Of a stretch of DNA of 64,000 bases, positions 52 through 48,189 are shown piece by piece; the stretch's first letter is position 1; every line of letters starts with the position of its first letter. The DNA comes from Mobula hypostoma (Eukaryota), in NCBI RefSeq assembly GCF_963921235.1, contig NC_086097.1, positions 24,678,001-24,742,000 on the forward strand. The letters are read 5' to 3'. The position numbers and the translations under genes are program-made. The notes beneath the pieces were generated by a model, which worked only from the letters and a program-made list of their open reading frames with translations, was not told where the DNA came from and did no database searches.

Positions 52-390
52 ACGCAAACAACAGGAATTCTGCAGATGCTGGAAATTCAAGCAACACACA
101 TCAAAGTTGCTGGTGAACGCAGCAGGCCAGGCATCATCTATAGGAAGAGGTACAGTCGACGTTTCAGGACAAGACCCTTCGTCAGGACTAACTGAAGGAA
201 GAGTGAGTAAGGGATTTGAAAGTTGGAGGGGGAGGGGGAGATCCAAAATGATAGGAGAAGACAGGAGGGGGAGGGATAGAGCCGAGAGCTGGACAGGTGA
301 TAGGCAAAAGGGGATACGAGAGGATCATGGGACAGGAGGTCCGGGAAGAAAGACGGGGGGGGGGGTGACCCAGAGGATGGGCAAGAGGTG
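52..390 (-). mobile_element. Penelope-like element 3' terminus (pLTR) fragment
   Basis: Highly similar to 5793-5990, which is contiguous with GIY-YIG-coding sequence; carries the hammerhead motif. Confidence 0.75.
154..189 (-). ncRNA. Minimal type-I hammerhead ribozyme motif (PLE-associated)
   Basis: Minus strand reads agtc-CTGACGA-agggtcttgtcct-GAAAC-GTC-gact: intact catalytic boxes, stem I agtc/gact, stem II agg/cct, GUC cleavage triplet. Confidence 0.75.
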
Positions 391-575
391 GCCAAGTCCA
401 TGCATATATTTAAGGCGGGTGTTGATCATTTCCTGATCGGTCAGGACATCAAAGGATATGGCGAGAAGGCAAGTGTATGGGGTTGAGTGGGATCCGAAGT
501 CAGCTGTGATGAAATGGCAGAGCAGACTCGATAGGCTGAATGGCCTAATTCTGCTCCTATGTCTTATGGTCTTAT
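391..575 (+). mobile_element. CR1-type LINE 3' end
   Basis: Typical tail ...ggcagagcagactcgataggctgaatggcctaattctgctcctatgtcttatggtctt, recurring after CR1 RT ORFs elsewhere (e.g. 32400-32465, 45080-45150). Confidence 0.7.
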
Positions 576-589
576 TCTCCTCCTATGAA

Positions 590-935
590 GTTATTCCCTT
601 AATGGAAGACACTTGTGTGTAACTTTAATGTGGGGAGCCTGATGCACAGGCAGCCATTATACGATCCTTGACAGGATCTTGTGGCATGGAATGCAAGACG
701 ACCAGGGACCCTTCACTGCTGCAGCCTTCCCCCAGCTTCACTGCCGTTGTAATATGTCGTCATCTTCCGCCACCTCCACTGTTGAGACTTTGGTTGGATC
801 TCTCTTTGTCTGGATCCTCCCCATTGACCTTATCACCATGGGTGACCATACGAGGAGCTGAACTCCACACAGCATTGCTCCCGGGATGTCAGCAGCACAC
901 AAGCCTCTCCACCATGACGAGGTGACAATCCTAGC
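590..935 (-). mobile_element. Possible RTE-clade (Rex3-like) 5' region fragment
   Basis: Minus strand begins ggattgtcacctcgtcatggtggagaggcttgtgtg...gtcacccatgg, resembling RTE/Rex3 5' UTRs from memory only. Confidence 0.35.
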
Positions 936-1305
936 AGAAGAAAGCAGGAGTATTTTATACCAGTGGCCAACAATATTTAATTAATAAGCTTCATTCCCTA
1001 AAACAAGTAATTTTGTTATCATGTTCCGTTCCAGTCCCACTTAATTGAAGTTTCATCATGTGAAACTATCTGTTAAAGTCTATCTTTAATTATGAATCAT
1101 TCAACACCATTTAATTCCAGACTTTAATTAAAGAGATGGAGCAGTGTATGGATGTTCTGTCCTTGCAGCCACAGATCTGTGAAACAATGCATTTGATATG
1201 AGAAAAATAAATTCCAATCTTCTCAACACGTCTCTTGCAAACTTTCTTCAAAACATAAGCTGATTCCCAAACTTCCTATTGCTAGCTGATGGTAGTAGGA
1301 CAGAG

Positions 1306-1499
1306 TCATTCCTTTCACGCCTTGTGGCGCATCGGGCGGCATTTTCGCTGTTTCTGTAGCATTTGACTTTTTTTATGAGGGCAAGTTGCTAACTGTACGT
1401 TTAACCTGACACAGACAGAAAGCTGCAAGGAGCCAGCCAGATTCAAACTCAGAACCATTCGCCTTGAATTCCAGGTCCAATGTCACTATGCCACCGGCC
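1306..1499 (-). mobile_element. tRNA-derived SINE
   Basis: Minus strand starts ggccggTGGCATAGTG (A-box-like) ... GAGTTTGAATC (B-box-like). Confidence 0.55.
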
Positions 1500-1855
1500 A
1501 GCACAGTAACAGGCCCTTCAGCCCACAATATCTGTGCCAATCCCAAAGCAACAGGAAACAAAAGTACTTCTGCCTGCACATGATCCATATTCCTCCAGTC
1601 CCTGCGTCTTTATACATCCATCTCACTTCTCGATGCCTCGTTAAAGCAGCCAGCATAATCAAAGACCCCACCCACTCTGAATACTCTCTCTTCTCCCCTC
1701 TCCCATCGGGCAGCAGATCCAAAAGCCTGAAAGCACACACCACCAGGCTCAAAGACAATTTCTACACCACTGTTTCAAGACTATGAAATAGCTCCCTAGT
1801 GCAGTAAAATGGACTCTGGGCCTCACAGTCTCCCTCATTATGACCTTGCACCTTA

Positions 1856-2493
1856 AGGCCAATTTATACTTCTGCGTCGAATCTACGCTGTAGATACGGC
1901 GTAGCTGCGTACCCTATGCCGTAGCCTGACGCACACCTCCCCAAAAATGTAATTACGCGTCGCGGTGATGCAGGCCACAACAACTGTGATTGGTCCGCTT
2001 GGTAGCATCACATTTCCTCCTATCCGTTTCCAGTTGCTGCTTCTCATCAAATTGTCAAATCTACCTGCCACCATCTGAAAATATTTGAAATGCATTTCCT
2101 CGTCCATGTCTCTCAGTGGCCGGATAAGCATAGGAAATTCACCCTCCTTCTGCCTCAATCCGTTCAATGGTCATGCACACCATCTCCTCTGACGACTTCC
2201 CTCTTTTCTGCATTGCAGTAATTTCAATAAAAGTAACTCTTGTTCAACATTTATTAGCTCCAACTCCAACATGATGCGCTTGGTTTCAGTCGCAATTGTT
2301 TGAAGTACACAGAGAAATTCAACACGAAGAAGCTAAACACAGATGGCATAGAAACCCCACCGCCAACTAGCGTTTTGGCGGTGAATTGCAGAGGGTCGCA
2401 GATACACCATCACACAAGTATAAATTCTCATAACGGTGTAGGCCACTTGCATAGGCTACGGTGTAGAGCCTATGCAGAAGTGTAAATCAGCCT
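1856..2493 (-). mobile_element. PIF/Harbinger non-autonomous deletion derivative
   Basis: TIRs aggccaatttatacttctgc / gcagaagtgtaaatcagcct; exact TTA target duplication (1853-1855, 2494-2496); internal ORF 1883-2167 [32 protein letters not shown] resembles a Harbinger transposase N-terminus; inserted in a Rex1-like 3' UTR. Confidence 0.85.
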
Positions 2494-3802
2494 TTAGTGT
2501 TTACCAGCACTGCATTTTCTCAGTAACTGTAACACCTTATTCTGCAGTTATTGTTTTACCTTGTTCTGCCTCAGTGCACGGTGCAATGATTTGATCAGTA
2601 TGAACAGTATACAAGACAAGTTTTCCACTGTACATGTGACAATAATAAACCAATTCCAGTTTCAATTCCACCACCCCGCCAATCCTGTCACTGAGTGCTT
2701 AGGAGTATGGAATGGTGGTACTGTGAGTGAACGTGCCCTGTGCAATAGGACAATGTGACTCACTGTGCCAGCAGGAACTGAAGCCAGATGCCTGCTGTTG
2801 CATTAATTAGAAGTTCTCCAATTTGCACAGCAGAGTCCCCTGACTAACTTAACTTCTGTGGCGCATCGGCGCAAATCATTCAAGAAGTGGATCTTCAGCT
2901 TGCCACAACTTCCATATTCCAGAGACCCAAAATATTCCCGCTGCAAGTAATATAAACAACAGAACTCAGCAGGTCATGCAGCTTCTGTGAAGGTTAAAGG
3001 TGAAAGACTGCATTTGGCTTGACATGCTACATCAGTCCAGATGCAGATCTTGACCCGAAATATCAACCTACACCTTTTATAAAAGCAAGAGATTCTATAG
3101 AAGCTGGGAATTTTCCACCTTTTACCTTTTAGCTCCACAGGTGCTGTTTGTCCCGCTGAGTTGTGTTCTGTTCTAGATTCCTGCATCTGCAGTCTCTTTT
3201 GTCCTCTTGTTAATGATACCGTGGATGTTTCATTGTACAACCTTCCTGAAGCACCATCTCCAAATGCAGAACATAGAATAATGCGGCACAGTACAGGCCC
3301 TTCGGCAACGATGTTGTACCAGCCTGTTGACCTCCTATAAGATCAACTTAACCTTTCCATCCCGCATCATCCTCCATTCTTCTTTCATCCATGTGCCTAT
3401 CTGAATGTCTCTGAAATCTCCCTACCTCTACCATTACCACTGGCAGTATGTCCACTTATCCACCATCCTGGTAAAAATCCTACCTCTGATATGCCCCCTT
3501 ATACTTTCCTCCAATCACCATAAAATTAGACCCCTGACAAAAATGTCTCTGCCTGTCCACTGCATCTATGTCTCTTATTATCTTGTACATCTTCCATCCT
3601 CCGTCACTCCAAAGGCAAAAGCCGGCAACCATTGTTAAGGACACCCCCCCACCCCATCATCCAAGATATGCCTTCTCATCGGGGAGGAGGTACAGGAGCC
3701 TGAAGACACACCCTCAATGATTCAAGAACAGCTTCTTCCCCTCTGCCGTCAGATTTCTGAACGGGCATTGAACCTATGAACACTACCTCACTGCTTTTTT
3801 TT

Positions 3803-5360
3803 TGATTTAATTTGGCTTTTTTGACACTGATCAACATAAAAAGACTCTTTTGTGTCCAAGTGAAAGAAGATCTCGACAAAATGATCTAAATTAATTTCAG
3901 GTATAAAACACAAAATCATTCATTGCATAATTACTCAACCCATTCAAGTCAGTATTTAGTAGATGCACCTTTGGCAGCAATTACAGCCATGAGTCTGTGT
4001 GGATAGGTCTCTATCAGCTTTGCACATCTGAACACTGCATTTTTTCCCCCATTCTTCTTTACAAAACTGGTCAAGTTCTGTCAGATTGCATGGGGATCGT
4101 GAGTGAACAGCCCTTTTCAAGTCCAGCAACAAATTCACAATTGGATTGAGGTCTGGACTCTGACTTGGCCACTCCAGGACATTAACTTTGTTGGTTTTAA
4201 GCTTTGGCTTTATGCTTGGGGTCATTGTCTTGCAGGAAAATAGATCTTCTCCCAAGTCACAGTTCTCTTGCAGACAGCATCAGGTTTTCCCCAGGATTTC
4301 CTTGTACTTTACTGCATTCATTTGACCCTCTACCTTCACAAGCCTTCTAGGGCCTGCTGCAGTGAAGCAACCCCACAGCATGATGCAGCCACCACCATGC
4401 TTCACGGGAGAGATGGTGTGTTTTTGATTATGTATACTGCTTGGTTTACACCAAACATAGCATTTAGTCTGATAGCCAAAAAGCTCAATATTGGTTTCAT
4501 CAGGCCATATAGAACTTTCTTCCAGATGACTTCAGAGTCTCCCATATGCCTTCTGGCAAACTCTAGCTGAGATTTCATCTGAGTTTTTTCAACAGTGGCT
4601 TTCTCTTTGCTACTCTCCCATAAAGCTGTGGCTGGTGAAGCATCTAGACAACAGTTGTGTGCGCAGTCTCTCCCATCTCAGCCACTGAAGCTTGTAACTC
4701 CTCCAGAGTTGTCATAGGTCTCTTGGTGGCCTCCCTCACTAGTCTCCTTCTTGCACGGTCACTTAGTTTTTGAGGATGACCTGCTCTAGGCAGATTTACA
4801 GCTGTGCCATATTCTTTCCATTTCTTGATGATTGACTTAACTGTACTCCAAGAGATATTCAGTGACTTGGAAATTTTCTTGTATCCATCTCTTGACTTGT
4901 GCTTTTCAATAACCTTTTCGCAGAGTTGTTTGGAGTATTCCGTTGTCTTCATGGTGTAGTTTTTACCAGGATACTGACTCAGCAGCAGTTGGACCTTCTG
5001 GATACAGGTGTATTTTTACTACAATCAGTTGAAATACCTTGACTGCACACAGGTCTCTAAAAACAGAACTCCATTTAACTAATTAACTGACTTCTAAATC
5101 TAATTGGCTGCACCAATGATGATTTGGTGTGTCATATTAAAGGGGGTGAATACTTACGCAATCAATTCTTTTGTGTTTTATATTTGTAATTAATTTAGAT
5201 CATTTTGTAGAGATCTGTTTTCACTTTAACACAAAAGAGTCTTTTTTGCTAATCAGCATCAATAAAGCAAAATTAAATCCACTGTGATTCAATACTGTCA
5301 AACAATAAAACATGGAAACTTCCGGGGGGGGGGGGGTGAATATTTTTCTTGGCGCTATCT
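3803..5360 (-). mobile_element. Tc1-family DNA transposon, degraded (long TIRs)
   Basis: ORF 4644-4952 is a Tc1 paired-like DNA-binding domain (GYKKISKSLNISWSTVKSIIKKWKEYG...); ORF 3956-4255 has the WPSQSPDLNPI motif; ~150-bp inverted repeats at ~3803-3945 and ~5140-5280; frameshifted. Confidence 0.92.
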
Positions 5361-5792
5361 TACTGTAATTTACAGTTTTTTATTATTATGTATTGCAATG
5401 TACTGCTGCCACATATCAACAGATTTCACAACATATGCCAGTGCCATTAAACCTGATTCTGATCCTGTGTCTGAAGCTTCTCCTCCTCTGTGTTCCCAAA
5501 GTCAAAGTCAAAGTTGAGTTTATTGTCATATGCTTAAGAAGTGTCATGTCTGCATAGATACAATGAAAAACTACATGCAGCTGGATCACAGGCATCTCAC
5601 ATCATATAAGCAGTATTCACAAGGAAAACATAAACTAAATGATAATAAAACTATTTTTTTACAAGAAGAAGCACCATCAGAACAAAAATACAAAGTCCAT
5701 TTCAGTGTAAAGTGATCAAAATGTTGCAAAACTGTGGTGACTGGAACTGTGAAGGGGAGTAACTGTTCTTGAACCTGGTGGAGTGGGACTTC

Positions 5793-6290
5793 TAGCAACA
5801 CACATAAAAGTTGCTGGTGAACTCAGCAGGCCAGGCAGCATCTCTAGGGAGAGGTACAGTCGACGTTTCGGGCCGAGACCCTTCATCAGGACTAACTGAA
5901 AGAAGAGCTAGTAAGAGATTTGAAAGTGGGAGGAGGAGATCTGAAATGATAGGAGAAGACAGGAGGGGGAGGGATGGAGCCAAGAGCAAGAGCTATATAT
6001 ATAGTAAATACGTAACGGATGGGGTATGAGGGGGAGGTGGGGCATTAATGGAAGTTAGAGAAGTCAATATTCATGCCATCAAATTGGAGGCTACCCAGAC
6101 AAAATATAAGGGGTTGTTCCTCCAACCTGAGTGTGGCTTCATCTTGACAGTAGAGGAGGCCGTGGATAGATGTATCAGAATGGGAATGGGACGTGGAATT
6201 AAAACGTGTGGCCACTGGGAGATCCTGCTTTCTCTGATGGACAGAGCGTAGATGTTCAGTGAAATTGTCTCCCAGTCTGCGTCGGGACTT
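5793..6290 (-). mobile_element. Penelope-like element: GIY-YIG endonuclease C-terminus plus pLTR
   Basis: Minus-strand translation of ~6050-6285: RRRLGDNFTEHLRSVHQRKQDLPVATRFNSTSHSHSD..HGLLYCQDEATLRLEEQPLIFCLGSLQFDGMNIDF, typical of a PLE GIY-YIG C-terminus; followed by a terminal repeat with the hammerhead. Confidence 0.8.
5858..5893 (-). ncRNA. Minimal type-I hammerhead ribozyme motif, best-preserved copy
   Basis: Minus strand agtc-CTGATGA-a-gggt-ctcg-gccc-GAAAC-GTC-gact: all core nucleotides, stem I, stem II with tetraloop, palindromic ACGU in place of stem III. Confidence 0.8.
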
Positions 6291-6924
6291 CTATCTGCGA
6301 TACTCCCTGCCCAATGGGAACCATGAGAAGGTGGCATGGCCTGGACTGTGGGGATTTCTCATAATGAATGTTGGTTTGGACACTTGCTGAGTAAGGAGAG
6401 ATTTGCACCTGCAAGTGTAGGATGGGTTAAACATTAAAACTGGTCAATCATGTGCCGGGTAGTCATAGATATGCTGACATCTACACACAGTGTGACTCTG
6501 TTAGTCACCTCCTGTAATGGGATTGAGAGGAAAAATAAATCAGCCGTGATCGAAAGGCAGAGCAGACTCAGTGGGCCGAATGGCCTAATTCTGCTCCTGT
6601 GTCTTATGGTGTGTGATGGCCCTGTGGCAGCTAGTCTCTGTTGACAAATGACTATGCATTAATCAATGCAGTAAGTCAATAAAAGTGAACTGTCAGCTCC
6701 TGCACTGAATAGATTAGAATGAATGATATGTACGAGATCTGATTAATGACCACACTCCGCTTTATCCATCTCTAAGTATAGGTGGCTTTGTATAATTAAA
6801 TAACATGAACACTATGTGATATCATCAATTGCACCTTCAGAAGTTACAGGTGTTAGCTGCTCACAGGCTTGCATTTCAGAAGTGTTGCATTGGCCATGAA
6901 GTGCCTGAGCAATTCTCAGATCAA

Positions 6925-7460
6925 CATGCACAAAATGCTGGAGGAACTCTGCAAGTCAGGCAGCACCTACAGAAATGAATAAGCTGGAAGGTGATAGGTG
7001 AGACCAAGTGGTAGGTAGGGAAGGAGCAGATGAAGTAAGAAGCTGGGAGGTGAAAGGTGAAAGAGGTAAAGGGCTGAAGAAGAAAATATCTGATAGGAGA
7101 GAAGAGTGGACCTTGGGAGAAAGAGAAAGAAGAGGGGAATCAGAGGGCAAGTGATGAGAAGAAAGGAGATAATAGAGGAACCAGATTGGGGAATAGGGAT
7201 AAAGGGAAGGACGGAGGGGTGAGAAATTACCACGTTGAAGAAAACGACGCTTATGCCATCAGGTTGGAGGCTGCCCAAAAGCAGTATGAGGTGTTGCTCC
7301 TTCATCCTGAGTTTGGCCTCATCATGGCAGTAGAGGAGGCCATGGACCACCATGTCAGAATGGGAATGGGAAGTCGAATTGAAATGGATAGCCACCAGGA
7401 GATGGTGCTTTTTCCAGTGGTTGTTAACAAAGTGGTCCCATAATCTGCATCTGTTCTCAC
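6925..7460 (-). mobile_element. Penelope-like element fragment (GIY-YIG C-terminus plus partial pLTR)
   Basis: ORF 6967-7467 contains VAIHFNSTSHSHSDMVVHGLLYCHDEAKLRMKEQHLILLLGSLQPDG, homologous to the 6050-6285 copy; hammerhead segment appears deleted. Confidence 0.75.
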
Positions 7461-9674
7461 TTATCACCTGCCAGCTTGCACTCCTTCCTCTCCTCCCACC
7501 TTCTTATTCTGGCTTCTGACCCCTTCCTTTCCAGGGATTAGTTTAGGTGGGCATTTAAATACTCGTTCAAGGCAACCCAGTAGGATGAAGGGCCTGTTCC
7601 TGTGCTGTACTGTTCTATAATCGTTGTTCAAGCCTTTTAGAATCATGCAGTCACAGAGCAGAAACAGGCTTTCGCCACGTACATCATGGGCCGAAGGGCC
7701 TGTACTGTGCTGTAATGTTCTGTGTTCTCTCATGGATGGCCAGGAAGGATGGGTAGAGCAGTGAAGCATGCCTTCTGGCTCATTGTCAGCTGTTTCACAC
7801 CGCCGTGCTGGAATGTGACCAGTTCCTATTCAAACAATTGGATCTCATTTCAGATAAACGGCCTTTGAGTGTTGCTACATTAATGTAGGACATCCACTGC
7901 TGTTCAATCTCTACCTGGCCCTCAGGGAAAGAACGAAGAATTTAATTTTGCATTTAATAAGCTGAAAGCAACTAATCTTCTATCTGGAAATTCATGCCAA
8001 TGTAATCCATTTATGAGATACATCACCAGAACATTAACTGGATCTCGGCATTATCTCTCACTGTGTAATGGAAAACCTCAGTGCCAGCTCACATCAAAGT
8101 GGAGGTTTTGCTGCGTCTGTAATTGGATTCGCCGAACTGACACTTAGCAACAAGCTCTTCCAAAATGTAGACAGAGGAAGCTTTTGAACATTATATGGTG
8201 CAGACGGAGATTCTCTGGCCTATTCTGTGCGACTTTATTCAGTGGAGAGCAGTGAGTCAGGGGTGATCCTATAGAGGTGTATAAAATGGTGAGGGGCATC
8301 ATGAGGGGCATCGATAGGGTGAATGCACACAGTCTGTTTCCCAGGGTTGGGGAATCAACCCTGAACAGAAAAGCCTGCAGAAGCTAGTGGATATAGCCCA
8401 GTCCATCACAGGCAAAGTTCTCCACACCGTTCAGCATATCTACAAAGAAAACAATATTCATCATCAAGGACCTCCAGCATCCAGGCCACGCTCCCTTCTT
8501 AATGCAGCCATCTGGAAGATGGTTCGGGAGCCTCAGGACTCACACCACCAGCTTCAGGAACAGGTATTACCCTTCAACCATCAGGATCCTGAATCTGTCT
8601 CAATATCCTCAACGCTGAACTGATATCAAAACCTGGGGACTCACTTTCAATGGCTCTACAACTCAAATTCTCCGTGTTATTTATTTACTTTTTTTAATTT
8701 AGATTTTTTTTGTATTTGCAGTTTGTCTTATTTTGCACATTGTCTGTTTGTCAGTCTTTGATTCTATTGTGTTACTTTATTCCACTGTGAATGCTCGCAA
8801 GGAAATAGATCTCGATGCAGTATACGGTGATATACTCATACGTATTTAGATAATAAATTTACTTTGAACTTTTTGAACATTGAAGGACTAGAGGGCATAG
8901 GGTTTGGGTGAAGGGTTCAGATTCAGATTCATTTATTGATCACATGTACATCGAAGCACTCAATGAAATGTGCCATTTGCTTCAACAACCAACACAACCT
9001 CAGGATGTGCTGGGGGCAGCCGGCAAGTGTCAACACACGTTCCAGCGCCAACAAGGCGTGTCCACCATATTCAGCTGAACAGCACAAACACCACCAACAA
9101 CAGCAACAAAACAGTAAAACAAACCCCTTTTCTCCCTCTAACCCACCCACTCAATCACACATCCACAAACAGTCTTCCTACCCCAGAACAGGCTATCTCC
9201 AGTGGATTCATGGAGGGATTTGATAAGAACTGATGAAGCAATAATTTCATCCAGAGGGTAGCCCGTATATGGAATGAGGTACTGGGGAAGCGGTTGGACA
9301 AGTATATGAATTAGAAGGATGTGGGCTAAACACGGGCAAATGGAACGAGCTTGGGTAGGAATCTTGGTTGGCAGGGACCAGCTGAGCCAGTGGGCTGGTC
9401 TCCATGCTGTATGTCTCTGTGACTCGTTGTCTGTATGTGCTCCTTGAAGGAGTTCCATATTAGTCCCACCTACCCTGTTCGTTCACAGCTCAATCAATCG
9501 ATCTTCATTGGTGGTGGTCTGATGTACCAGTGAGGAAGTCTTTATTTAACTGAGAGCAGTTAAGTACCAAACGCGCAGCTGTAGTGGTAGAAAAAGTAAT
9601 ATTAACCTGTGCCTCAGGTAGGAATGAGCCCAGATGAAGGGACTGAACCAGAAGCATAACCATTTCGCTTCAAT

Positions 9675-11125: not shown

Positions 11126-13270
11126 ATAAGACCAAAAGATATAGGAGCAGAAGTAGGCTATTCGACCCATCAAGTCTGCTCCGCCATTCAATCATGGGCT
11201 GATCCAATTCTTCCAGTCATCCCCACTCCCCTGCTTTTACCTCATACCCTTTGATGCCCTGGCTAATCAAGAACATATCTGTCTCTGCCTTAAATGCACC
11301 CAGTGACTTGGCCTCCACATCCACTCATGGCAACAAATTCCACAGATTTACCACCTTCTGACTAAAGTGATTTCTCCGCATCTCTGTTCTAAATGGACGT
11401 ACTTCAATCCTGAAGTCATGCCCTCTTGTCCTAGAATCCACTACCATGGGAAATAGAACATAGAACATAGAATAGTACAGCACAGTACAGGCCCTTCGGC
11501 CCACAATGTTGTGCCGACCCTCAAACCCTGCCTCCCAAATATACCCCCACCTTAGATTCCTCCATGTACCTGTCTAATAGTCTCTTAAACTTCACTAGTG
11601 TATCTGCCTCCACCACTGACTCAGGCAGTACATTCCACGCACCAACCACTCTCTGAGTAAACAACCTTCCTCTAATATCCCCCTTGAACTTCCCACCCCT
11701 TACCTTAAAGCCATGTCCTCTTGTATTGAGCAGTGGTGCCCTGGGGAAGAGGCGCTGGCTATCCACTCTATCTATTCCTCTTATTATCTTGTACACCTCT
11801 ATCATGTCTCCTCTCATCCTCCTTCTCTCCAAAGAGTAAAGCCCTAGCTCCCTTAATCTCTGATCATAATGCATACTTTCTAAACCAGGCAGCATCCTGG
11901 TAAATCTCCTCTCTACCCTTTCCAATGCTTCCACATCCTTCCTATAGTGAGGTGACCAGAACTGGACACAATACTCCAAGTGTGGCCTAACCAGAGTTTT
12001 ATAGAGCTGCATCATTACATCGCGACTCTAAAACTCTATCCCTCGACTTATGAAAGCTAACACCCCACAAGCTTTCTTAACTACCCTATCCACCTGTGAG
12101 GCAACTTTCAGGGATATGTGGACATATACCCCCAGATCCCTCTGCTCCTCCACACTACCAAGTATCCTGCCATTTACTTTGTACTCTGCCTTGAAGTTTG
12201 TCCTTTCAAAGTGTACCACCTCACACTTCTCCGGGTTGAACTCCATCTGCCACTTCTCGGCCCACTTCTGCATCCTATCAATGTCTCTCTGCAATCTTTG
12301 ACAATCCTCTACACTATCTACAACACCACAAACCTTTGTGTTGTCTGCAAACTTGGCAACCCACCCTTCTACCCCCACATACAGGTCATTAATAAAAATC
12401 ACAAAAAGTAGAGGTCCCAGAACAGATCCTTGTGGGACACCACTGGTCACAATCCTCCAATCTGAATGTACTCCCTCCACCACCACCCTCTGCCTTCTGC
12501 AGGCAAGCCAATTCTGAACCCACCTGGCCAAACTTCCCTGGATCCCATGCCTTCTAACTTTCTGAATAAGCCTACCGTGTGCAACCTTGTCAAATGCCTT
12601 ACTAAAATCCATATAGATCACATCCACTGCACTACCCTCATCTATATGCCTGGTCACCTCCTCAAAGAACTCTATCAGGCTTGTTAGACCCGATCTGCCC
12701 TTCACAAAGCCATGCTGACTGTCCCTGATCAGACCATGATTCTCTAAATGCCTATAGATCCTATCTCTAAGAATCTTTTCCAACAGCAAATAACTTTGCC
12801 TTATCTAATCTGTTAACGTCTGGATTGTTTCTGTGAGATCCCCCCTCATTCTCCTGAACTCCAGGCCCAAGAGCTGCCAGATGTTCCTCATATGATAACC
12901 ATTTCATTCCTCGAATCATCCTCATGAATCTTCTCTGAACCCCCTCCAATGTCAGTATATCCTTTCTAAAATAAGGAGCCCAAATCTGCACACAATTCTC
13001 CAAGTGTGGTCTCATGAGTACCTTATAGAGCCTCGACATCACATCCCTGCTCTTATATTCTGTACCTCTAGAAATGAATGCCAACATTGCATTCACCTTC
13101 TTCACAACTGACTCAACCTGGAGGTTAGCCTTTAGGGTATCTCCGAAGTCCCTTTGCATCTCTGCATTTTGAATTTTCCCCCCATCTAAATAATAGTCTG
13201 CTCATTTATTTCTTCCAACAAAGTGCATGACCATACACTTTCCAACAGTGTATCTCATTTGCCACTTCTT
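11126..13270 (-). mobile_element. Older CR1 LINE 3' portion, split by a younger CR1 insertion
   Basis: ORF 12767-13159 (QVESVVKKVNAMLAFISRGTEYKSRDVM..LYKVLMRPHLE) continues into a 3' tail at 11126-11455. Confidence 0.8.
11453..12787 (-). mobile_element. Younger 5'-truncated CR1 LINE (RT domain to 3' tail)
   Basis: ORFs 12028-12789 (QHGFVKGRS..YMDFSKAFDKV..GVPQGSVLGPLLF..FADNTK) and 11521-12015; (TGTTCTA)n-type tail; short aaata duplication at the junctions. Confidence 0.92.
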
Positions 13271-15329
13271 GCTTGGGCCATGAGCCTCTGGTTGGCTCAA
13301 GATGATCTATAGGAATTCAAGCTGTTCTCTCCTGCACCACCATTCAAGAGAGTCAATTCTTTTCTGTTCTTGCATTAAGTCCAGCTTTCACATCTGTATG
13401 GCACTTCTGAGGTGTACCAATCTTATCTGAGCCAACAGAAATCAAAATCACTTTCAAAAATTTGAGTTTAAAATAAAAATTCACACTTATGGAATGTACA
13501 GTATATGGAAATAAATAAATACTCATAAAATATATCCAGGAAACTGAAATAATTTGCCAATGAGAATGATTGCAGAATGCCAGCTCATAGTGATGGCCAG
13601 TTAAGGGATTTGCTTTGGAAACTGACAAGGCAATATATTGATACTTGTACAATGTCACTTTATGAAACAATGTTATATCCATTATGTTAATTAAAGCAAC
13701 AACTGGTTCTCTTCTGTTTATATTATAATCAGGATTCCCTTGCTTATCAACCATGAATCGCAATGCCATTACTGTTGAGAACACTGCGTCTCAACATTGG
13801 ACTCAAAAGGCTTTTTGCCATGGAAAATCGCAATATCAATCGTTTTCTAGAAACGCAACCCAGAATCAGGGTTATTATCACTGTCTTGGCCTGAAATTGA
13901 GACTGTTCATTCATTTTCATCGATGCTGCCTCCGGTATTTTGTGTGTGACGCTCAAGATTTCCAGCATCTGTGTCTATGAATATAAATGGGTGCTTGAAT
14001 ATCAGCACAAATCCTGTGGGCTGAAGAGCCTGTTTATGTACGATATGGCTCTATCACTGAATAATTAAGCGAGGTGATTCTAAGATTGGCAGGATGCTGA
14101 GGAAACTTCCCCTGCTCTTCTGCTAAGGCAACACATCTGCCCGAGAAGGTGTATTATTGTCTCCTCTGGAAGATTTTGATAATGCAAGCCCCATTCACAC
14201 TGCAGCACCCAGCCTCCATTCAGAGTGTGCTCACTGATTCTCCCTCTCTGCTTCTTTTCCTACTCGGTCAGTGCAAAGAGAAGATAAAGCCCGATCCAAA
14301 GTGAAATCAGTCAGAAGAATTGTTGAAGGATTAGAATAAATAAGCATTATCTCTAGGCAGTAATGCAATATCAAATCACCGACACTTGATTGCTGAGATT
14401 TAGTGGATTAAGGTGCAGTCAGTACAAACCAATGATCATGTCCATAGCTACTACATTATACTGACTCTACTTGGCATTAAAGGAATGTAATTAATCTAAA
14501 TTCTGGACAAAAGAAATTAGTGTGGAGAGGGGTGTCAAAGTCAATGTAAAAACTATATTCAAAGTCCATATATGTTACCTAGCAGGTCCTGAAGAAGGAT
14601 CTCGGCCTGAAACATTGACTGTTTATTCCTTTCCCTAGATGCTGCCTGACCTGTTGAGTTCCTCCAGCATTTTGTGTGTGTTGCTCTGGATTTCCAGCAT
14701 CTGCAGACTTTCTTATGTTTATGTTATCATGATACCTTGAGATTCTCTTTTTTTTTTCTTGTAGGTATTTACAAAAAAATAAAGAAATACTATAGAATTT
14801 ATAAAAAGCCATGCATAAACGAAGACTGGTGTGTTAAGCAGGGAGCAGAAGGAGTTGAACAATGAAACATTTTGCTGAAGCAGTGGTGAGGTCCAAATCC
14901 CACTGGCTGAATGGGTACTGGAAGCAAAGTCTCTCTCTGCCCTGGATGGGCTGTTCCAGGGTTGTGCCCAGAGGAGTTGTGACCAAGCTCGGAAAGATGG
15001 GAGTCAATTTCTGGCTGGCTGAATCAGAATTGGAATCAGCTTTACTATCACTAAATTTGTTCTGTAGCAACAGTATGGTGCAAGACAGTAACAAAAAATA
15101 TGATAATGTACAATAATAAATAAATAAAGAGTGTGAAAGAGGAACAGTGAGCTATTGTTCATGAGTTCCTGGACCATATCTACCCTGTCCTTTCCAAATT
15201 CTCCATTTTCCCCAAGTTTCCAGTTGGATTCATTAGTGCTTAATCTATTATTTAAGTCCCTTCATCTTTATGAATTTAACAAATAAAAATGGGAGAGTAA
15301 TAATACAGAGTACTTTTACCACAAAACTG

Positions 15330-23540: not shown

Positions 23541-24220
23541 AAGTATAAATAGAGTGAACAACCAGAGACATTTTCCCAGGGTGGCAATGGCTAATACGAG
23601 AAAACATACTTTAAGGTGATTGGAGGAAAGTAGAAGGGGGGTGTCAGAGGTAGTTTTTTTTTGAGAGTGGTAAGGGCGTGGAATGTACTGTCAAGGGTGA
23701 TATATTAGGAACATTTAAGAAACTCCCAAATAGGCACATGGATGAAAGAAAATTGGAGGGTTATATGGGATGAAAGGATTAGATTGATTTTGGAGTAGGT
23801 TAAAAGGTCGATGCAGCATTATGGGCCGAAAGGCTTGTACTGTATAGTACTTTTCTGTGTTCTATGTTCTATGTTTGTAGGGGTTTGAAGTGGTTTTGTC
23901 ATCTGAAGGCATCCCTCATCTGAAGTGATGTGCTGACCTTGTGATATGTCAGTTTCAAACCCCTCTTTGTTTTGAAGTGAGTAGATAATGAAGAAGGCTC
24001 CTGCTTGGTTAGGGGGTGTACCTGGTACAGAAAGAGATCCCAGCAGATCACGGGACAGAAGGGGGCAAGTATATTGCCTCCATTAGCAGACTGTACAGGA
24101 CATCTTTAGCAAAGCTGGGTTTGCAAACTGCTGCATATGAACAACTACTACACACACACACATACATACACACACACACACACACACACTCAGAAACGTG
24201 TGTGCGTGTGCGCACACACA

Positions 24221-24545
24221 CACTTTCAGAGAGGCACACATTCAGATACACGCAGAGTCAGAGAGGTACGCACTGACACACACACAGACACACAGACACA
24301 CAGACACACTTTCAGAGAGGCACACATTCAGATACACGCAGTCAGAGAGGTACGCACTGACACACACACAGACACACAGACACACAGACACACTTTCAGA
24401 GAGGCACACATTCAGATACACGCAGAGTCAGAGAGGTACGCACTGACACACACACAGACACACAGACACACAGACACACTTTCAGAGAGGCACACATTCA
24501 GATACACACAGAGTCAGAGAGGTACACACTGACATACACACACAA
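24221..24545. repeat. Minisatellite, about 4 near-identical 84-86-bp units, in CA-rich sequence
   Basis: Unit cactttcagagaggcacacattcagatacacgcagagtcagagaggtacgcactgacacacacacagacacacagacacacagaca starts at 24221, 24307, 24391, 24477. Confidence 0.9.
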
Positions 24546-25374
24546 TCAGACAGATATATATATTCAGATGTTCAGACACACACATACACACATTCAGTCA
24601 AGCACACTCACTAATATACATACACAGACATACATATTCAGACAGACACAAACATCCACACAAAGTATCTCGGCTGGAATGCAGGTGAGCATTCGCTCTG
24701 ACACCTTGGCTCATTCTAACATTGTGCAGTTCCTTCAGTCATTGAACTGAGTTTACTGAGAACCTACACGGCCTTTGCAGTGCTGCCTGTTGTACTTTCA
24801 TGGAACACTGATTCCCTCAGGCATATCTCAGCACATTAATATTCATAAGCTATCCACCTGGCTTTGAAGATCTGTAAGTGGATCTCAGAATGAAATGATT
24901 CTCTCGAATGGAAAATCTGTACAAATATCTCCTGCTTTTAACAGCATGCTTCCATATGACGCAGTTGACTGAAGTGTGCGGGATATCAGTGCTCCTTCCT
25001 CACCCGCTGCCTCTGTCTTTGATTTGAGGGTTTCCTTTATAACTGTATCTCTTTGTCTGAATAGCAAGCAGGGCCAACCAGCATCATCCGTCATTACGTG
25101 GACCCACATAGGGCCCTGGTTCCCAAATTCAGAAAGGTTACTCATTAAGTTCAAGTTCAAAGTATATTTGTTGTTAAAGTATGTATGCATTGTACAATAT
25201 TGAATTTCATCTCCTTCCAGGCAGCTACAAAACAAAGGAAAGCAAAATAACCCATTTTAAAAAAAGATTGCAAAATACCCAAAAGTGTTATTTAAAAATA
25301 CTTTGATGTTTTCTTTGTTTTGTTTGCTGCCGTTAAGCAGTTTCCGGGCTTCACCAGTTCCATCTGACTTATTT

Positions 25375-25899: not shown

Positions 25900-26470
25900 G
25901 TTAAACACATGCAAAATGCTGCAGGAACTCAGCATCCATGAAAAAGAGTTGATGTTTCAGGCCAAAACCCTTTATTAGAGTCCTGATGAAGGGTCTCAGC
26001 CCAAAACATCGATTGTACCCTTTTCCTCCTGCCATCTGGCAAAAGGCACGAAGTATTCGGGCTCTCACAACCAGACTATGTAACAGTTTCTTCCCCCAAG
26101 CCATCAGACCCCTCAATACCCAGAGCCTGGACTGACACCAACCTACTGCCCTCTACTGTGCCTATTGTTTATTATTTATTGTAATGCCTGGACTGTTTTG
26201 TGCACTTTATGCAGTCCTGCATAGGTCTGTAGTCTAGAGTAGTTTTTGTGTTATTTTATGTAGTTCAGTGTAGTTTTTGTATTGTTCATGTAGCACCATG
26301 ATCCTGAAAAACATTGTCTCGTTTTTACTGTGTACTGTACCAGCAGTTATGGTCGAAATGACAACGACTTGACTTGACTTTTCCATAGATGCTGCCTGGC
26401 CTGCTGAGTTCCTCCAGCATTTTGTGTGTGTATTGCTTGGATTTCCAGCATCTGCAGATTTTCTCTTGGT
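25900..26470. mobile_element. Inverted (palindromic) Penelope-terminus cassette split by a Rex1-like 3' end (~26027-26377)
   Basis: Minus-sense pLTR half, then plus-sense half with degenerate hammerhead (25979-26014); inserted LINE tail flanked by cttttcc duplication. Confidence 0.7.
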
Positions 26471-26509: not shown

Positions 26510-26730
26510 GACACCAAAGATTCTGCAGATGCTGGAATATGAATCAACACACAAAACACTGGAGGAACTCAGCAGATCTGGCAGCTTCTGTGGAGGGGAA
26601 TGGACAGTCAGGGTTTTGGATCAAACCTCTTTATCTCAACTGACAAAGAGTCTCAGCCCAAAATATCAATTCTGCATTTCCGTCCATAGATGCTGCCTCA
26701 GCTGCTGAGTTCCTCCAGTGTTTTATACTT
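26510..26730. mobile_element. Palindromic Penelope-terminus cassette (older)
   Basis: aaaacactggaggaactcagcag ... ctgctgagttcctccagtgtttt inverted arms. Confidence 0.7.
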
Positions 26731-28529
26731 TGTTGTAGCTGATATCTGTAGAATACATGGAGACAGATAATATCTATGATATGTTCAGAGAAGGGTTAAA
26801 TTTATAATCAATAAAAATAGGAAATATGAGGTACTAAAACAACTCCAAAACATATTAATAACACACACAAAATGCTGGAGGAGCTCAGCAGGTCAGGCAG
26901 AATCTATGGAGAGGAATAAACAGTCAACGTATTGGGCCAAGGTCTGGATAGGAAGGGGGAAGAAATGAGAGGAAGAAGACTGGGGGAAGGGGAAGGTTCA
27001 CAAGCTAGAAGGTGATGTTTGCAACCAGGTGAGAGGGAAAATAATTGGATGGGGAAGCGGGGATGAAGTAAGAAGCTGAGAAGTGATGGGTGGAAGAGGT
27101 ACAGGGCTGCAGAAGAAGCAGAGGAGAGGTGAATGGTCCCGAGGAGAAAGGGAAGGAAGAAGGACACCAGAGGGAGGTGATAAGCAGGCGATAAGAAGAG
27201 GTAAGAGGAGAGCCAGAATAAGGAATGGAAAAAAAGGAAAGGGGAAGGAAGGAGAAATTACCAGAAGTTAGAGAAATCACCAGAAGTTAGAGAAATCAAT
27301 TTTCATGTCGTCTAAATCACCTTAATGATTTAGGGGTTGACTGTGTTTTATCGTTCATTCATCTGGGTAGATTTTTCATCAACAAATAGTTTCATTCTGT
27401 GTTTTGTATTATTTTTATTTGCTCACTCACCCTGGTTGTTCTCAAAATCTTCTTTGCATGAGAAACAAAGCTTCCCTCTGTATCGAGACTTCCACAAAAT
27501 AAATCCGCCCCGTCAGGGAAGAGGCATGGACACCACTGATTTAACAATAGGATTGAAGGAGAATCTTTATAAAGATGTTGCTGGGGACTTGAGGATCTGA
27601 GTTACAGGGAAAGGTTTAACAGGTTAGGACATTATTCCCTGGAGTGTAGGAGAATGGGGGGAGATTTGATAGAGGTATACAAAATTATGAGGAGTATAGA
27701 TAGGTTAAATGCAAGGAAGATTTTTCCACTGAGTTTGGGTGAGACCAGGACTAGAGGTCATGGGTTAAGGGTGAAAGATGAAATGTTTAAGAGTAACCTG
27801 AGAGGGAACTTCTTAACTGGGAGGGTGGTGCAACTGTGGAGCAAGCTGCCAGCAGAAGTGGTGGATGCGGGTTCAATGGTAACATTTAAGAGAAGCTTGG
27901 ATAAGTAGATGGACATGGGGGATATGGAGGATAATGGTGCAGGTCGGTGGGATGAGGCAGAATAACAGTTTGGCATGGACTAGATGGGCTGATGGGCCTG
28001 TTTCTGTGTTATAATGCTCTATGACTGTATAACACAGCTGATGAAAGACAGCAGCATTTAATAGACATTTACAAGGGATATAGATAGGGTGAAAGCATGC
28101 AGTCTCTTTCATCCTCAGGTTGGGAGAAACTAGAATTATAGGTCATAGGTTAAGGGTGAAAGGTGAAATACTTAAGGGGTACCTGGGGAGCAACTTCTTC
28201 ACTCAGAGGGTGGTAAGAGTGGAATGAACTGCTGGTGGAAGTGGTAGATGAGGATTCAATTGTAATAATTAAGAGAAACTTGGATAGGTTTATGGATATA
28301 GCTAGGCCTTATTATTGCCTTGGGGTCAGCTGTTGCAGTCGCCAAGGAAGGAGATGTCAGAGCTGGCTATGTGCTGCTGGATTCCATCCCAGCAGTGTTT
28401 GCTCAATGGGAGACAAGCTGGATTGTGCTTGTCTGAGGATACACTACACGATATGAGAAACTGCTGCAGACTTTTCTTGCAGAAACATGGCTACAGGACA
28501 ACAGAGCCAGTGTTCTGTTCTGGGTGTCT

Positions 28530-37490: not shown

Positions 37491-38507
37491 GGTCACCAGG
37501 AAAATGATGGATTTTCTTAAACCTATCTGATTCATTTGTGCAACACATACAAAATGCCAGAGGAACTCTACTAGTCAGGCAGCATCTATGAAGGAGAATA
37601 AAAGAAATCAATATTTCAAACTGAGACCCCCCATTAGAATTATAAAGGGAGTGTGCAGAAGCCAGAATCAAAAATGTAGGGGAGGTCTGAAATGTCAACT
37701 GTTTATTCCCCTCCAAAGATATTTCCTGACTTGCTGTGTTCCTCCAACATTTTGTGTGTGTTGTTCAAGATTTCCTTCATCTGCAGAATCTCTTGTGTTT
37801 GTGATTCTTCCATGCCCTTCACTGACAGAAAGTCTGAGCTGTTTGTGACTGCAGGTTCAAGGGCTGACTTTGCCCTCTAATGGCCTATACAGACACTACA
37901 CGCTGTTGCTGCCTTCCCCGGTGATTCCACAACCCATGAACTAGTACATTTACCTCATCTCCTCATCTCCAGAGGCAGCCACTACCACACACCTCCCCCC
38001 CCCCCACCCCCATCTGTTCCTATCTAAAGGATTCTCTGATTCTCACGAATCACTGGATGGGTCAAGTTCAGATGAATATTACTGAATATCGAAATGCCTA
38101 TTTAGACTGGACATGGAAATGATGTTTCCAATACTGGGAGAGTCTAAGACCAGAGGAGACAGCCTCTGAATGGAAGGATGTCCCTTTAGAACAGAGATGA
38201 AGAAGAATTTCTTCAGCCAGATGGCGATGAATCATTGCCACAGAAGGAGACTAAGTCATTGGATTTGCAATGGTTGATAGGATTTTTGAATAGTAAGGGT
38301 GTCAAAAGCTATGAGGAGAAGGCAGGAGAATGGGTTTTATAAGGGTAATAAATCAGCCATGATCGTATGGCGGAGCAGACTTGATGGCAGCCAGGAAGGA
38401 GGGGTCACTTGGAATTTGCAATGTAGGGTGTATCTGTTACACAGGGAGAATCTGAGTGTCAAACATAAGCAAATGGAGAGGAAAGTGAAGATGCATGATG
38501 CGCTTTC

Positions 38508-42885: not shown

Positions 42886-43035
42886 ACAACACGCTGGAGG
42901 AACTCAGCAGGTAGGGCAGCACCCGTGGAAACGAACAGTCAACGTTTCCACGGATGCTGCCCTATCTGCTGAGTTCCTCCAGCGTGTTGTGCGTGTTGCT
43001 TTGACCCCAGCATCTACAGAGTATTTTGTGTTGTT
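42886..43035. mobile_element. Penelope-terminus-derived hairpin insertion
   Basis: 48-bp inverted arms 42886-42933 / 42943-42990; flanked by tgata(g/a)taaacct duplication. Confidence 0.8.
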
Positions 43036-45308: not shown

Positions 45309-45387
45309 GTCACCGATGACTTGATTGTGTCCTCAGCGGAGTGCGCCAGCGACGATGAGGACCTCGACGAGTGCGAGCCGAGCTCAG
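45309..45387 (+). CDS. NRXN2: Neurexin internal coding exon (stalk/cysteine-loop exon just before splice site 5); alternative donor extends it to 45396. Paralogue most likely NRXN2 (not certain).
   Basis: Translates (phase 0) as [27 protein letters not shown], matching the neurexin motif (NRXN1 [27 protein letters not shown]; NRXN2 [27 protein letters not shown], recalled). Branch-like CTCAC plus polypyrimidine tract and CAG acceptor ending 45308; donors CAG|GTGGGT (45388) and TAG|GTCAGT (45397). Locally CpG-rich. Family call is strong; paralogue call rests on the DDLxV length and DEDL(D/E)EC. Confidence 0.9.
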
Positions 45388-48189
45388 GTGGGTTAGGTCA
45401 GTCCACTTTCGCTTGCTTCTTTTTTAATTCTACCTTTCTGCATAAATAATGTGATAAAAGTAAACCAGTTAAATAAATGATAATTAAAATCGAAACCAGC
45501 TTCAGGTCCCCGTGGAACTATGCGGGAGAGGAAACCGCTGATTTAAGGTGTAATACAGTGAACAACATTTTATTTTTTTTGAAAAGGTTATTTGATCAAC
45601 AGATGGCAAATTGAAATGACCAACATGCAATCCCTTCAGATCGTCATCAGAGGAAGTGAAATGCTTAAGCAGGAATAATAACGATTTCACGTTAATTGTG
45701 TTCCACTCCTCGCACAGGGCCCAGGGGACTCCCAAAGTGGTTTACGTGGTGCTCTTCAGTGCTCTGATTTGGTCACTCACACGGCTAAACCCAGCTGCTG
45801 AGAGACAAAATTAGTCACGGATTCATGCACCCTGTTGGCCTGGCTGATGTTTCAAAATGTTGCTGTCAGAATTGAGAATGACTGCCAATGTTGCAAAAAC
45901 CCTTTTGCCTTGACTTCACACTCACTGTTTTGTTTGCTCACTGACAGAAACATTTTGCTTGCTTTAGCCAGGCAGACCTGTGATACTGAACTGATGTACT
46001 AAAAGTATTAGGCTGGTTTCTTTTCTTTCTCACCCCTTTCAAAACTTAGGTTATTGTAATAGAGAACAGATATCAAAGAATTTCTGTGTATGAATTTCTT
46101 TTTGACATAGAAGTATTTTGCAGGCTCATCTACATATTTAATAATATATATGCATACATAAGAGTATGTACATATATACTTATGTATAAACTAGTGCAGA
46201 TATGAAGAGATATTGAGAAACTAATTTGTGCAGCAAAGTATTTTCCTGGGTTTGCACTTTATTTTTTTAATTAATTAATATTAAGTAACTCTTATTTTAT
46301 ATTGATTGCTCAAACTCCCATAAGTCTTAAAAGATTCCCTAAGTTTTATAACAGCTTTTATTTTACTTTGGGCAAATATATATCTGTACTTTTACAATTT
46401 TCTATTTGAATTGTAATAAAAGACAGACCTCAACAGTCCTCAACCATCCAATCATGCGTTTACACAGAAATTCACTCCTTCATTCTAACTCCCAGCATTA
46501 GCAAGCCAACAGATGCATGCCGTGGTGTTTTATCTGCCTGTTTTAAGTTCAATTTATGTTGTTGTCAAGCACCAGTAATATATATGACATTGCTCACTTT
46601 TTCACTTCATCATGTACCGCATGTGATTTTGGTGGTGGTTAATAATAATATCAATATATATATTATAGATATATATATTCATTTATATTTTGTAAAAATC
46701 AAAACTTAGAATCATCTTGAACTTCTTTTTTGAAGACTTTTTTTAATTAAAAATAGTCGTGATTATTTTTTTTCAATCAAGATTTTCTTTTTGGAAAAAA
46801 AATGTCTTTTTTTTTCCCTGGAGGCAACAAAATCCTTTCTTGCCATCGAACCAAAGCAGCAAGGATGAGTCTTCCATCCTGGACTGCCAAAGAAAGTTGT
46901 GTACGAGAGACTGCTATCAGTGGGAATAAGTAGAAAGCCGTGCTCCCTCTCTGTTTCCCCTTACCCTCCCCTTTACTCCCTTCCTTGCTGTCACTACTCT
47001 CTACAGCCTTAACATTTCTGTTCTTTCAAAAGACTTCCTTTAACCAGATGATCATTTAATTCAAGAAAACTATAGATGGCACAAAAAGAATTTTATTGTC
47101 AGGCGCCATTGTTATTTTCTCAGTAATTTATAAATTCATGTTTGATCTCGTACAGCAGCTTTTATGCGTGGCATGCCACAGTGCTAACAACTTCCTAACA
47201 GCCGCCTGTTTCATGACTCTCTAACCAGTGCATGGGCTGTGATGGCGCCATTGTGTGTCTCATGGGGACCCATTGGGGAACGATCATCCAACCTGCTGTG
47301 TGCATTCAGACAGCTGTTTATTTGTTACGAGTTGTTATCTGTTGTGTCATTGGTATCTCAGAGCTGCTGCCTCTCAATCTCCTTCTGTTCTCCTTTCTTG
47401 GAGCTGGTTTGTGTCTGTGATGACTGTTGTCAATGTTGTGACGTCATGTGATTCTGTTCTCTGTTTTCGTAGAGGTTTGTTAAAACTCCGACCCCCCCCC
47501 CCACCTTTCTCTTGCCCCTCTCCATCCCCAAAGAGGAAATTCCTAGAAGGGCGATAGACAAGCAAAAATGCTCAAAAATAAAACCAATATTTTGTCTAGT
47601 TATTGATGGACACCTCTCCAGCTTGGTGATATTTCTCCAGTGTTTTTAACTCCATCGTGGGAGATGGTGGTGGCGTCAGACGCTGCAACACACCACAAAT
47701 TGGTATGACAAGGGGGAAAAACTGGTAGAAGATGGTTAGAGGTGGCATGTATGGTCCTTCCTGCAGGTTTCTGTCCTGAGAGAATGCAGCAGAATACCTT
47801 TCTGAGGTTTTATTTATCTCTTTCAGTTTCTTAACATCTTCCTGACATCTTTTCTAATTGTGTATTGGGGGAGGAGAATCAGGATTCGTCCGTGTTTCTG
47901 TGTCAGTGATAAGAGTACAAGATCTACCCAAGCAGATGGGAAGAATGGCTGGATAGTGATGGGGCTGTTTCATCTCTGTCTATCAATTATTGTATCTATC
48001 TAATTAATTGATTATTCATTCATCTATTTAATTTATTAGTTAGTTAGCATTTATTAATTTAATATTTACTTTATTCGCCCACTTATTTATCTATTTTTAA
48101 ACCTATGTATTATTTTCTATTATTTATGTTTTATTTGTATTTATTTATCTAGTTGTCTATTTACTTATCTATCTATTTATTCATTTGTT

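What the first reader, a model, noticed from the sequence alone, without database searches (positions are those of the whole stretch)
154..5893. Intact minimal hammerhead ribozyme motifs in Penelope-like element termini
Seen: two minus-strand copies (154-189, 5858-5893) read stemI-CUGANGA-stemII-GAAAC-GUC-stemI' with all core nucleotides, and the second lies directly 3' of a GIY-YIG coding remnant. Established: Penelope-like elements carry minimal type-I hammerheads in their pLTRs, with a vestigial palindromic stem III proposed to work as dimers. Inference: this abundant repeat has seeded the neurexin introns with catalytic RNA motifs that an ORF track cannot show.
Basis: partly seen in the sequence, partly recalled or inferred. 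Interest (0 to 1): 0.75.

Follow-up and report, generated by a model that had tools for sequence, protein, structure and literature searches.

The report
Dead Penelope-element hammerheads, antisense in neurexin
Two small self-cutting-RNA (hammerhead) motifs really are present, but they are tail pieces of shortened copies of a very common jumping gene of a known kind, they face the opposite way to the neurexin-3 gene they sit in, and they are likely inert there.

Summary
Observation confirmed. Both minus-strand motifs (154-189, 5858-5893) carry the full minimal type-I hammerhead core and match the published Penelope-like element (PLE) consensus; resampled windows give 0.08 such hits. The second lies 151 nt past the stop of a GIY-YIG remnant, inside one 489-bp 5'-truncated insertion with a 10-bp target duplication. 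The two are separate insertions, not paired pLTRs: no PLE ORF lies between them. They belong to a family with 20 members in the window, mostly CpG-decayed and without covariation. The host gene is neurexin-3 on the plus strand, so both motifs are antisense and absent from its pre-mRNA; the only sense copy with a complete core has lost its palindrome. Copy 1 also has a weakened stem II. 'Catalytic motifs seeded in neurexin introns' is therefore overstated. The kind was described in 2014 (PMC4209133); I found no paper on it in rays or sharks. This scan has already reported the same family at other loci of this genome and in other shark-like genomes. Ordinary; low interest.

The parts
154..189 (-). 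Minimal type-I hammerhead, copy 1: complete core and ACGU palindrome, stem II weakened (C11.1U, 3 bp); predicted cleavage after C17 at 158
52..390 (-). 5'-truncated PLE copy 1: 3' UTR, hammerhead, 3' module with the ~30-bp tail; both boundaries approximate, no convincing target duplication
   Evidence: 87% identical to copy 2 over 210 columns; the 5' part reads like the C-terminal read-through of homolog P0001; tail; right flank 386-560 is another repeat
5858..5893 (-). Minimal type-I hammerhead, copy 2: fully intact (4-bp stem II, G10.1-C11.1, ACGU palindrome); predicted cleavage after C17 at 5862
5795..6283 (-). Single 5'-truncated PLE insertion (489 bp): GIY-YIG C-terminal remnant, shortened 3' UTR, hammerhead, 3' module without tail
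6045..6283 (-). C-terminal half of a PLE GIY-YIG endonuclease with its stop codon; the YIG motif lies beyond the truncation
   Evidence: 78-85% identical to 4 ray proteins; 3 of the 4 hit Pfam GIY-YIG below the curated cut-off, the remnant itself has no Pfam hit; tblastn
5785..5794 (.). Target-site duplication, left copy (10 bp)
   Evidence: the flanks are collinear with one host repeat at 8448-8576
6284..6293 (.). Target-site duplication, right copy (10 bp)
14585..14620 (+). Third hammerhead, the only sense-strand copy with a complete CUGANGA/GAAA core; palindrome broken (ACAU), C11.1U, C17U, stem II mismatched
45309..45398 (+). Neurexin-3 exon (cysteine-loop stalk); it fixes the host gene on the + strand
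   Evidence: PDB neurexin-1, E 2e-9; 71 hits among 92 candidates, 69 named neurexin-3/3a or neurexin-3-like of sharks and rays, the other 2 with neurexin-type domains; only exon found by tblastn of 3 isoforms

Best explanation
The two motifs are minimal hammerheads in the 3' end module of two separate 5'-truncated copies of an abundant Penelope-like retrotransposon, inserted antisense in a neurexin-3 intron, where they are likely inert passengers. Shown: motif anatomy, GIY-YIG linkage, the 10-bp target duplication of copy 2, the host strand, and CpG-driven decay of sister copies. Inferred mechanism: in an active source element the motif would sit in both pseudo-LTRs of a tandem RNA and cut after GUC only when two copies pair through their ACGU palindromes, or when the element's RT-endonuclease protein helps it fold. 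The endonuclease nicks DNA and reverse transcription starts at one of two sites roughly 65-110 nt 3' of the cut site, giving copies without or with a tail, and usually stops early. The hammerhead therefore rides along in many short copies. Once inserted it is under no selection and its CpG-rich core decays.
For: Motifs fit the published consensus CUGANGAH-G..C-GAAAN-palindrome-NUH. GIY-YIG remnant 78-85% identical to ray proteins that carry a YIDD motif (3 of 4), a CX4CxxC linker (4 of 4) and YIGE/YTGE. Target duplication and collinear host-repeat flanks with a 41-nt gap in both places. 20 family members in the window, with 4 head-to-head inverted pairs and 3' ends in two groups (11 with tail, 5 without, 4 other), both PLE signatures (PMC8557442 passages, PMC11167929). 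CpG transitions 44 of 103 versus 20 of 117 at other C/G sites, p 5e-5. Host exon on the opposite strand. Predicted share of the open-core monomer fold is 0.001 and 0.023 as 38-mers and 8e-5 with 20-nt flanks. Published monomer inactive and multimers weak (PMC4209133); Anolis motif protein-dependent, with no RNA-seq reads ending at the cut site (PMC11167929).
Against: No cleavage or stranded RNA data were obtained, so inertness is inferred. Antisense transcription across the intron cannot be excluded. Copy 2 is fully intact. Nearest-neighbour folding ignores tertiary and protein contributions. No full-length element of this family is in the window and no genome was held, so the two-pLTR arrangement was not seen here. 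The right-flank host-repeat hit is weak (E 0.067). The CpG tally includes truncated rows whose first few columns may not be homologous.
Confidence: 0.88

Rival explanations
1. The motifs are active at this locus: an antisense or read-through transcript spanning both copies, or two transcripts in trans, forms a double hammerhead and cleaves, affecting antisense RNA over NRXN3.
For: Both intact copies are on the same strand, 5.7 kb apart, with matching ACGU palindromes. A double-hammerhead fold can be drawn: -13.2 kcal/mol for copy 1 with copy 2.
Against: That fold is 8 kcal/mol worse than the two monomer minima (-21.2) and far from the best dimer fold (-27.9). An upstream hairpin is predicted to sequester CUGANGA in context. 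Copy 1 has decayed in stem II. Two intact copies sharing a strand is expected half the time. Published dimers with close spacing were weak (PMC4209133).
Confidence: 0.05
2. The short members are a separate non-autonomous family (SINE-like or non-LTR retrozyme) that begins at the hammerhead and is mobilised by the PLE, rather than random 5'-truncation products.
For: Many contigs stop matching exactly at 5893, the upstream edge of stem I, with mixed flanks: 1513, 1213, 1180 and 235 contigs in 4 of 4 runs laid, agreement 0.36-0.49. Most window members are about 100-140 bp and start at or inside the motif. Animal retrozymes are reported as PLE derivatives (10.64898/2026.07.22.740005).
Against: It does not apply to the two named copies, which carry 200-390 nt of upstream PLE sequence. 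The older 3' module at 6916-6984 lies downstream of its own GIY-YIG remnant at 7234-7464. No head-to-tail array of the motif is among the 20 members. Loose ends at 5893 could also come from subfamilies with a different pyrimidine-rich UTR.
Confidence: 0.2
3. The match is chance, or a consensus look-alike that was never a ribozyme.
For: No Rfam hammerhead hit; fold z-scores -0.4 and -0.6; no covariation among local copies.
Against: Null mean 0.08 against 3 observed. It matches features that were not in the descriptor (bulge, G10.1-C11.1, palindrome) and sits where PLEs carry hammerheads. Of the 40 variant rows shown (147 not shown), the only one inside the motif is N7, the free position, although N7-G8 is also a CpG.
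Confidence: 0.02

Closest known systems
Minimal hammerheads (min-HHR) in the pLTRs of metazoan Penelope-like elements (Cervera and De la Pena 2014, PMC4209133)
   Same: Type-I topology, CUGANGA-H-G10.1...C11.1-GAAA-N-N-U-H, palindromic 15.2/16.2, short stem I, U-rich 5' flank, mostly single motifs in truncated copies, some in nearby opposite-strand pairs.
   Different: Stem II is short (4 bp) compared with most rows of the published alignment. No cartilaginous fish is in the part of that alignment I read or in the term search of its supplements (file 1 could not be searched).
PAc, Poseidon PLE of Anolis carolinensis (Frangieh et al. 2024, PMC11167929)
   Same: Hammerhead shortly upstream of two alternative 3' ends that define an optional 30-40-bp tail; C-terminal GIY-YIG.
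   Different: This family's homologs carry a CX4CxxC RT-EN linker, described for Neptune/Nematis rather than Poseidon. Protein-assisted cleavage was shown for PAc and is untested here.
Neptune-clade EN+ PLEs (as described in Craig et al. 2021, PMC8557442)
   Same: RT followed by a zinc-finger-like CX2-5CxxC linker and C-terminal GIY-YIG in the close homologs; 5' truncation, tail, and adjacent inverted truncated copies.
   Different: The clade rests on the linker motif of homologs only; no RT tree was built and the window holds no RT of this element.
Animal non-LTR retrozymes (10.64898/2026.07.22.740005; PMC7229834 seen only as a search listing)
   Same: Type-I hammerheads related to PLE pLTRs.
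   Different: Retrozymes are head-to-tail arrays with at least two complete motifs; these copies are solitary or head-to-head.

Membership tests
PLE minimal hammerhead (min-HHR) | Core CUGANGA and GAAA..UH with type-I stem I | tested here: met
PLE minimal hammerhead (min-HHR) | Unpaired base between 9 and 10.1; G10.1-C11.1 pair | tested here: met
   Copy 2 has both; copy 1 has the bulge but G10.1 opposite U
PLE minimal hammerhead (min-HHR) | Palindromic 15.2/16.2, no real stem III | tested here: met
   ACGU in both named copies
PLE minimal hammerhead (min-HHR) | Covariation across family members | tested here: inconclusive
   14 of the 20 window members, mostly decayed: score 0.232 against 0.267 shuffled, 423 of 500 shuffles as high. 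No genome-wide or cross-subfamily set was available.
PLE minimal hammerhead (min-HHR) | Self-cleavage as dimer or with protein | not testable with these tools
   Folding estimates only
EN+ Penelope-like element | C-terminal GIY-YIG endonuclease upstream of the terminal module | tested here: met
   Remnant 78-85% identical to proteins with Pfam GIY-YIG hits below the cut-off
EN+ Penelope-like element | RT in the same ORF | tested here: inconclusive
   Absent from the window copies (truncated); YIDD in 3 of 4 homologs, but no Pfam RT hit
EN+ Penelope-like element | 5' truncation, optional 30-40-bp tail, adjacent inverted copy, target duplication | tested here: met
EN+ Penelope-like element | Two pLTRs flanking one ORF | tested here: not met
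   Not met by these two copies, which are separate insertions with no PLE ORF between 190 and 5795; expected for truncated copies
Neptune clade | CX2-5CxxC linker between RT and EN | tested here: met
   4 of 4 homologs; not in the window remnant itself
Neptune clade | RT phylogeny | not tested
   No reference PLE set was fetched
Non-LTR retrozyme | Head-to-tail tandem units, each with a complete hammerhead | tested here: not met
   None among 20 members
Rfam hammerhead families | Covariance-model match | tested here: not met

The most novel reading that the evidence does not exclude
Ray genomes carry this motif at very high copy number, so intact copies could cleave host RNAs in trans-dimers or with help from the element's protein. 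Selection would then purge intact sense-strand copies from introns, which fits this window (both intact copies antisense, the sense copy decayed), and the ribozyme fold rather than its cut site would set the 5' edge of the short copies. That would make ray genomes a natural test of whether minimal PLE hammerheads act in vivo.
Probability: 0.08. Interest if true: 0.6.

Novelty: new member of a known kind. Interest (0 to 1): 0.14.

Why it matters
At this locus it matters little: these are passengers of a known class of element, on the strand that the host gene does not transcribe. The family has modest value because the role of PLE hammerheads is still open (PMC8557442, PMC11167929), I found no paper on them in cartilaginous fish, and a high-copy family with a CpG-rich core allows a cheap genome-wide test of strand bias by core integrity.

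Tried and rejected
Whole-genome analysis: no genome held. Rfam: no hammerhead hit in the window or in two 161-bp scans; the other hits are far below their gathering scores. Degenerate pattern scans for relatives: 0 in metagenome contigs and 0 in viral contigs. Expression: no RNA holder listed; X15 is only guessed to be RNA and is contigs, so it gives no strand, end or level. The two motifs as paired pLTRs of one element: rejected; the interval holds a Tc1-like transposase remnant and no PLE ORF (the only PLE-protein hit between them is a 30-aa match at E 0.005). Target duplication for copy 1: a 7-bp match at 45 and 407 lies inside the flanking repeat and was not accepted. Strand bias in the window: 12 of 20 antisense, p 0.50, no evidence either way. 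An empty site for copy 2 in related organisms: no exact joint among the 15 shown of 660. Literature: Penelope+ribozyme+elasmobranch gave 0 papers; Penelope+cartilaginous fish+transposable elements+ray gave 4 papers, 3 listed, none on this topic by title or abstract start; hammerhead+intron+antisense orientation+retrotransposon gave 3, none on point.
Full report
Observation. Both motifs are at the stated coordinates on the minus strand. Copy 2 (5858-5893) has stem I of 4 bp plus a U-G pair, CUGAUGA, a bulged A, a 4-bp stem II opened by G10.1-C11.1, GAAA, the ACGU palindrome, C17 and the 3' arm of stem I. Copy 1 (154-189) has the same core with C at N7, but C11.1 is U and stem II has 3 pairs. 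A loose descriptor finds 3 hits in 64 kb, the third at 14589-14616 on the plus strand. Sixty first-order Markov resamples gave a mean of 0.08 hits with stem I of 3 or more. Rfam has no matching model at E up to 10, and the folds are no more stable than shuffles (z -0.4 and -0.6). Both results are expected for a motif without stem III, but they add no support.

The element. Upstream of copy 2 on the minus strand is an 81-codon frame ending at a stop at 6045-6047, 151 nt before the motif. It is 78-85% identical to 4 proteins among 11 candidates, all from Mobula and Hypanus rays. Three of the 4 hit Pfam GIY-YIG below its cut-off and the remnant itself has no hit. The homologs have YIDD (3 of 4), a CX4CxxC linker (4 of 4) and YIGE or YTGE. 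The linker points to the Neptune clade as described in PMC8557442; no tree was built. A 10-bp duplication at 5785-5794 and 6284-6293 bounds the insertion. Its flanks match one host repeat at 8448-8576 in order, with a 41-nt gap both there and here once the insert and one duplication are removed (E 9e-6 and 0.067). So copy 2 is one 489-bp 5'-truncated insertion with one hammerhead. Copy 1 is 87% identical over 210 columns, holds only UTR and the end module, and has no convincing duplication. No PLE ORF lies between the two.

The family. A profile from 7 window copies finds 20 members. Eight of them form 4 head-to-head pairs. The 3' ends fall into 11 with a tail, 5 without (copy 2 counted after removing its duplication) and 4 others. 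Both patterns are described for PLEs (PMC8557442; PMC11167929, where the tail lies between two reverse-transcription start sites). Contigs of 4 coded runs pile on the end module: summed depth 1.0e7 over the motif against 11.5 on the unique flank in X1, which the tool says is not a copy number. Of 40 variant rows shown (147 hidden), the only one inside the motif is N7, where C holds 60-80% of the depth. N7 is the free position, but it is also a CpG.

Decay. I aligned 14 of the 20 members, those covering part of the core. Three have complete CUGANGA and GAAA, and two keep the palindrome and C17 as well. Thirteen of 14 have lost the C11.1-G12 CpG: 7 to U11.1 and 6 to A12. Transitions hit 44 of 103 CpG cells against 20 of 117 other C/G cells, p 5e-5 (a few truncated rows may contribute non-homologous columns). 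Covariation is not above shuffles (0.232 against 0.267; 423 of 500). This fits neutral decay after insertion and says nothing about selection on source elements.

Host gene. A splice-signal scan found one exon candidate at 45309 on the plus strand. It matches neurexin-1 in the PDB (E 2e-9) and 71 of 92 candidate proteins, 69 of them named neurexin-3, 3a or neurexin-3-like of sharks and rays. It is the only exon hit by 3 full isoforms, so bases 1-45308 are most likely one intron (inference). Both named motifs are antisense and would not appear as hammerheads in the pre-mRNA. The only sense copy with a full core (14585-14620) has ACAU in place of the palindrome, C17U and a mismatched stem II. 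Family strand counts are 12 antisense of 20 (p 0.50).

Folding. The open-core monomer fold has a predicted share of 0.001 (copy 1) and 0.023 (copy 2) as 38-mers, and 8e-5 with 20-nt flanks, where an upstream hairpin takes up CUGANGA. A double hammerhead scores -16.7 kcal/mol for two copies of copy 2 against -22.2 for two monomer minima, and -13.2 against -21.2 for copy 1 with copy 2. These models ignore tertiary and protein contacts, so they lower but do not exclude activity.

Mechanism and literature. In PMC4209133 (read: parts 1-2 of 4 of the text, part 2 of 3 of supplementary file 2, term search of 2 files; file 1 could not be searched and may bear on the shark question) such motifs occur in pLTRs and by the thousand as single motifs; the monomer did not cleave and multimers were weak. 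In PMC11167929 (parts 1-2 of 4) the Anolis motif cleaved only with the element's protein, was dispensable for insertion in vitro, and left no read ends in RNA-seq. PMC8557442 was seen as passages. The preprint 10.64898/2026.07.22.740005 (parts 1-2 of 5 and passages; supplements closed) links tandem retrozymes to PLEs and includes one chondrichthyan. My searches found no paper on these motifs in rays or sharks. The most likely reading is passive carriage: the motif works, if at all, in tandem RNA of active elements, and these two genomic copies are likely inert (0.88).

What stays open. Many contigs stop matching at 5893, the upstream edge of stem I, not at the cut site (1513, 1213, 1180 and 235 in the 4 runs). 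An earlier scan note reported the same in another genome (e1-7858714). It may mark a hammerhead-headed short family, or only subfamily UTR differences.

Verdict. Real motif, known kind, interpretation overstated; found before by this scan in this and other genomes. Interest 0.14.

Noticed in passing
window 25904-26026, 26515-26755, 37537-37795, 42872-43027: Four head-to-head inverted pairs of the PLE end module, three of them joined at or inside the hammerhead region; all decayed.
   Followed up: partly
window 6916-7531: Older PLE copy on the minus strand: GIY-YIG remnant at 7234-7464 (about 60% identical to the ray homologs) and a 3' module from which the hammerhead is missing, with a short inverted UTR-like piece at 7481-7531.
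   Followed up: partly
window 5893 (table 7): Over a thousand contigs in each of 3 runs, and 235 in the fourth, stop matching at the upstream edge of stem I with mixed flanks.
   Followed up: partly
window 45309-45398: Neurexin-3 exon with two candidate donors 9 nt apart, matching isoforms with and without a three-residue extension among the fetched proteins; a Mustelus isoform matches further upstream (88% of the 40-aa query), hinting at an alternative acceptor.
   Followed up: partly
window 3956-5015: Broken Tc1/mariner-like transposase on the minus strand (Pfam HTH_SB E 1.5e-15, DDE_3 E 1.6e-4).
   Followed up: no
window 5955-6044: The 3' UTR of copy 2 looks shortened at a short TA run compared with copy 1 and the read-through of homolog P0001.
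   Followed up: partly
window 11521-12804, 58449-60584, 62337-63188: LINE-type reverse transcriptase and endonuclease remnants, recognised by eye from the translations and not tested.
   Followed up: no
window 24110-24750 and 63556-63671: Tandem arrays of short units (seen).
   Followed up: no
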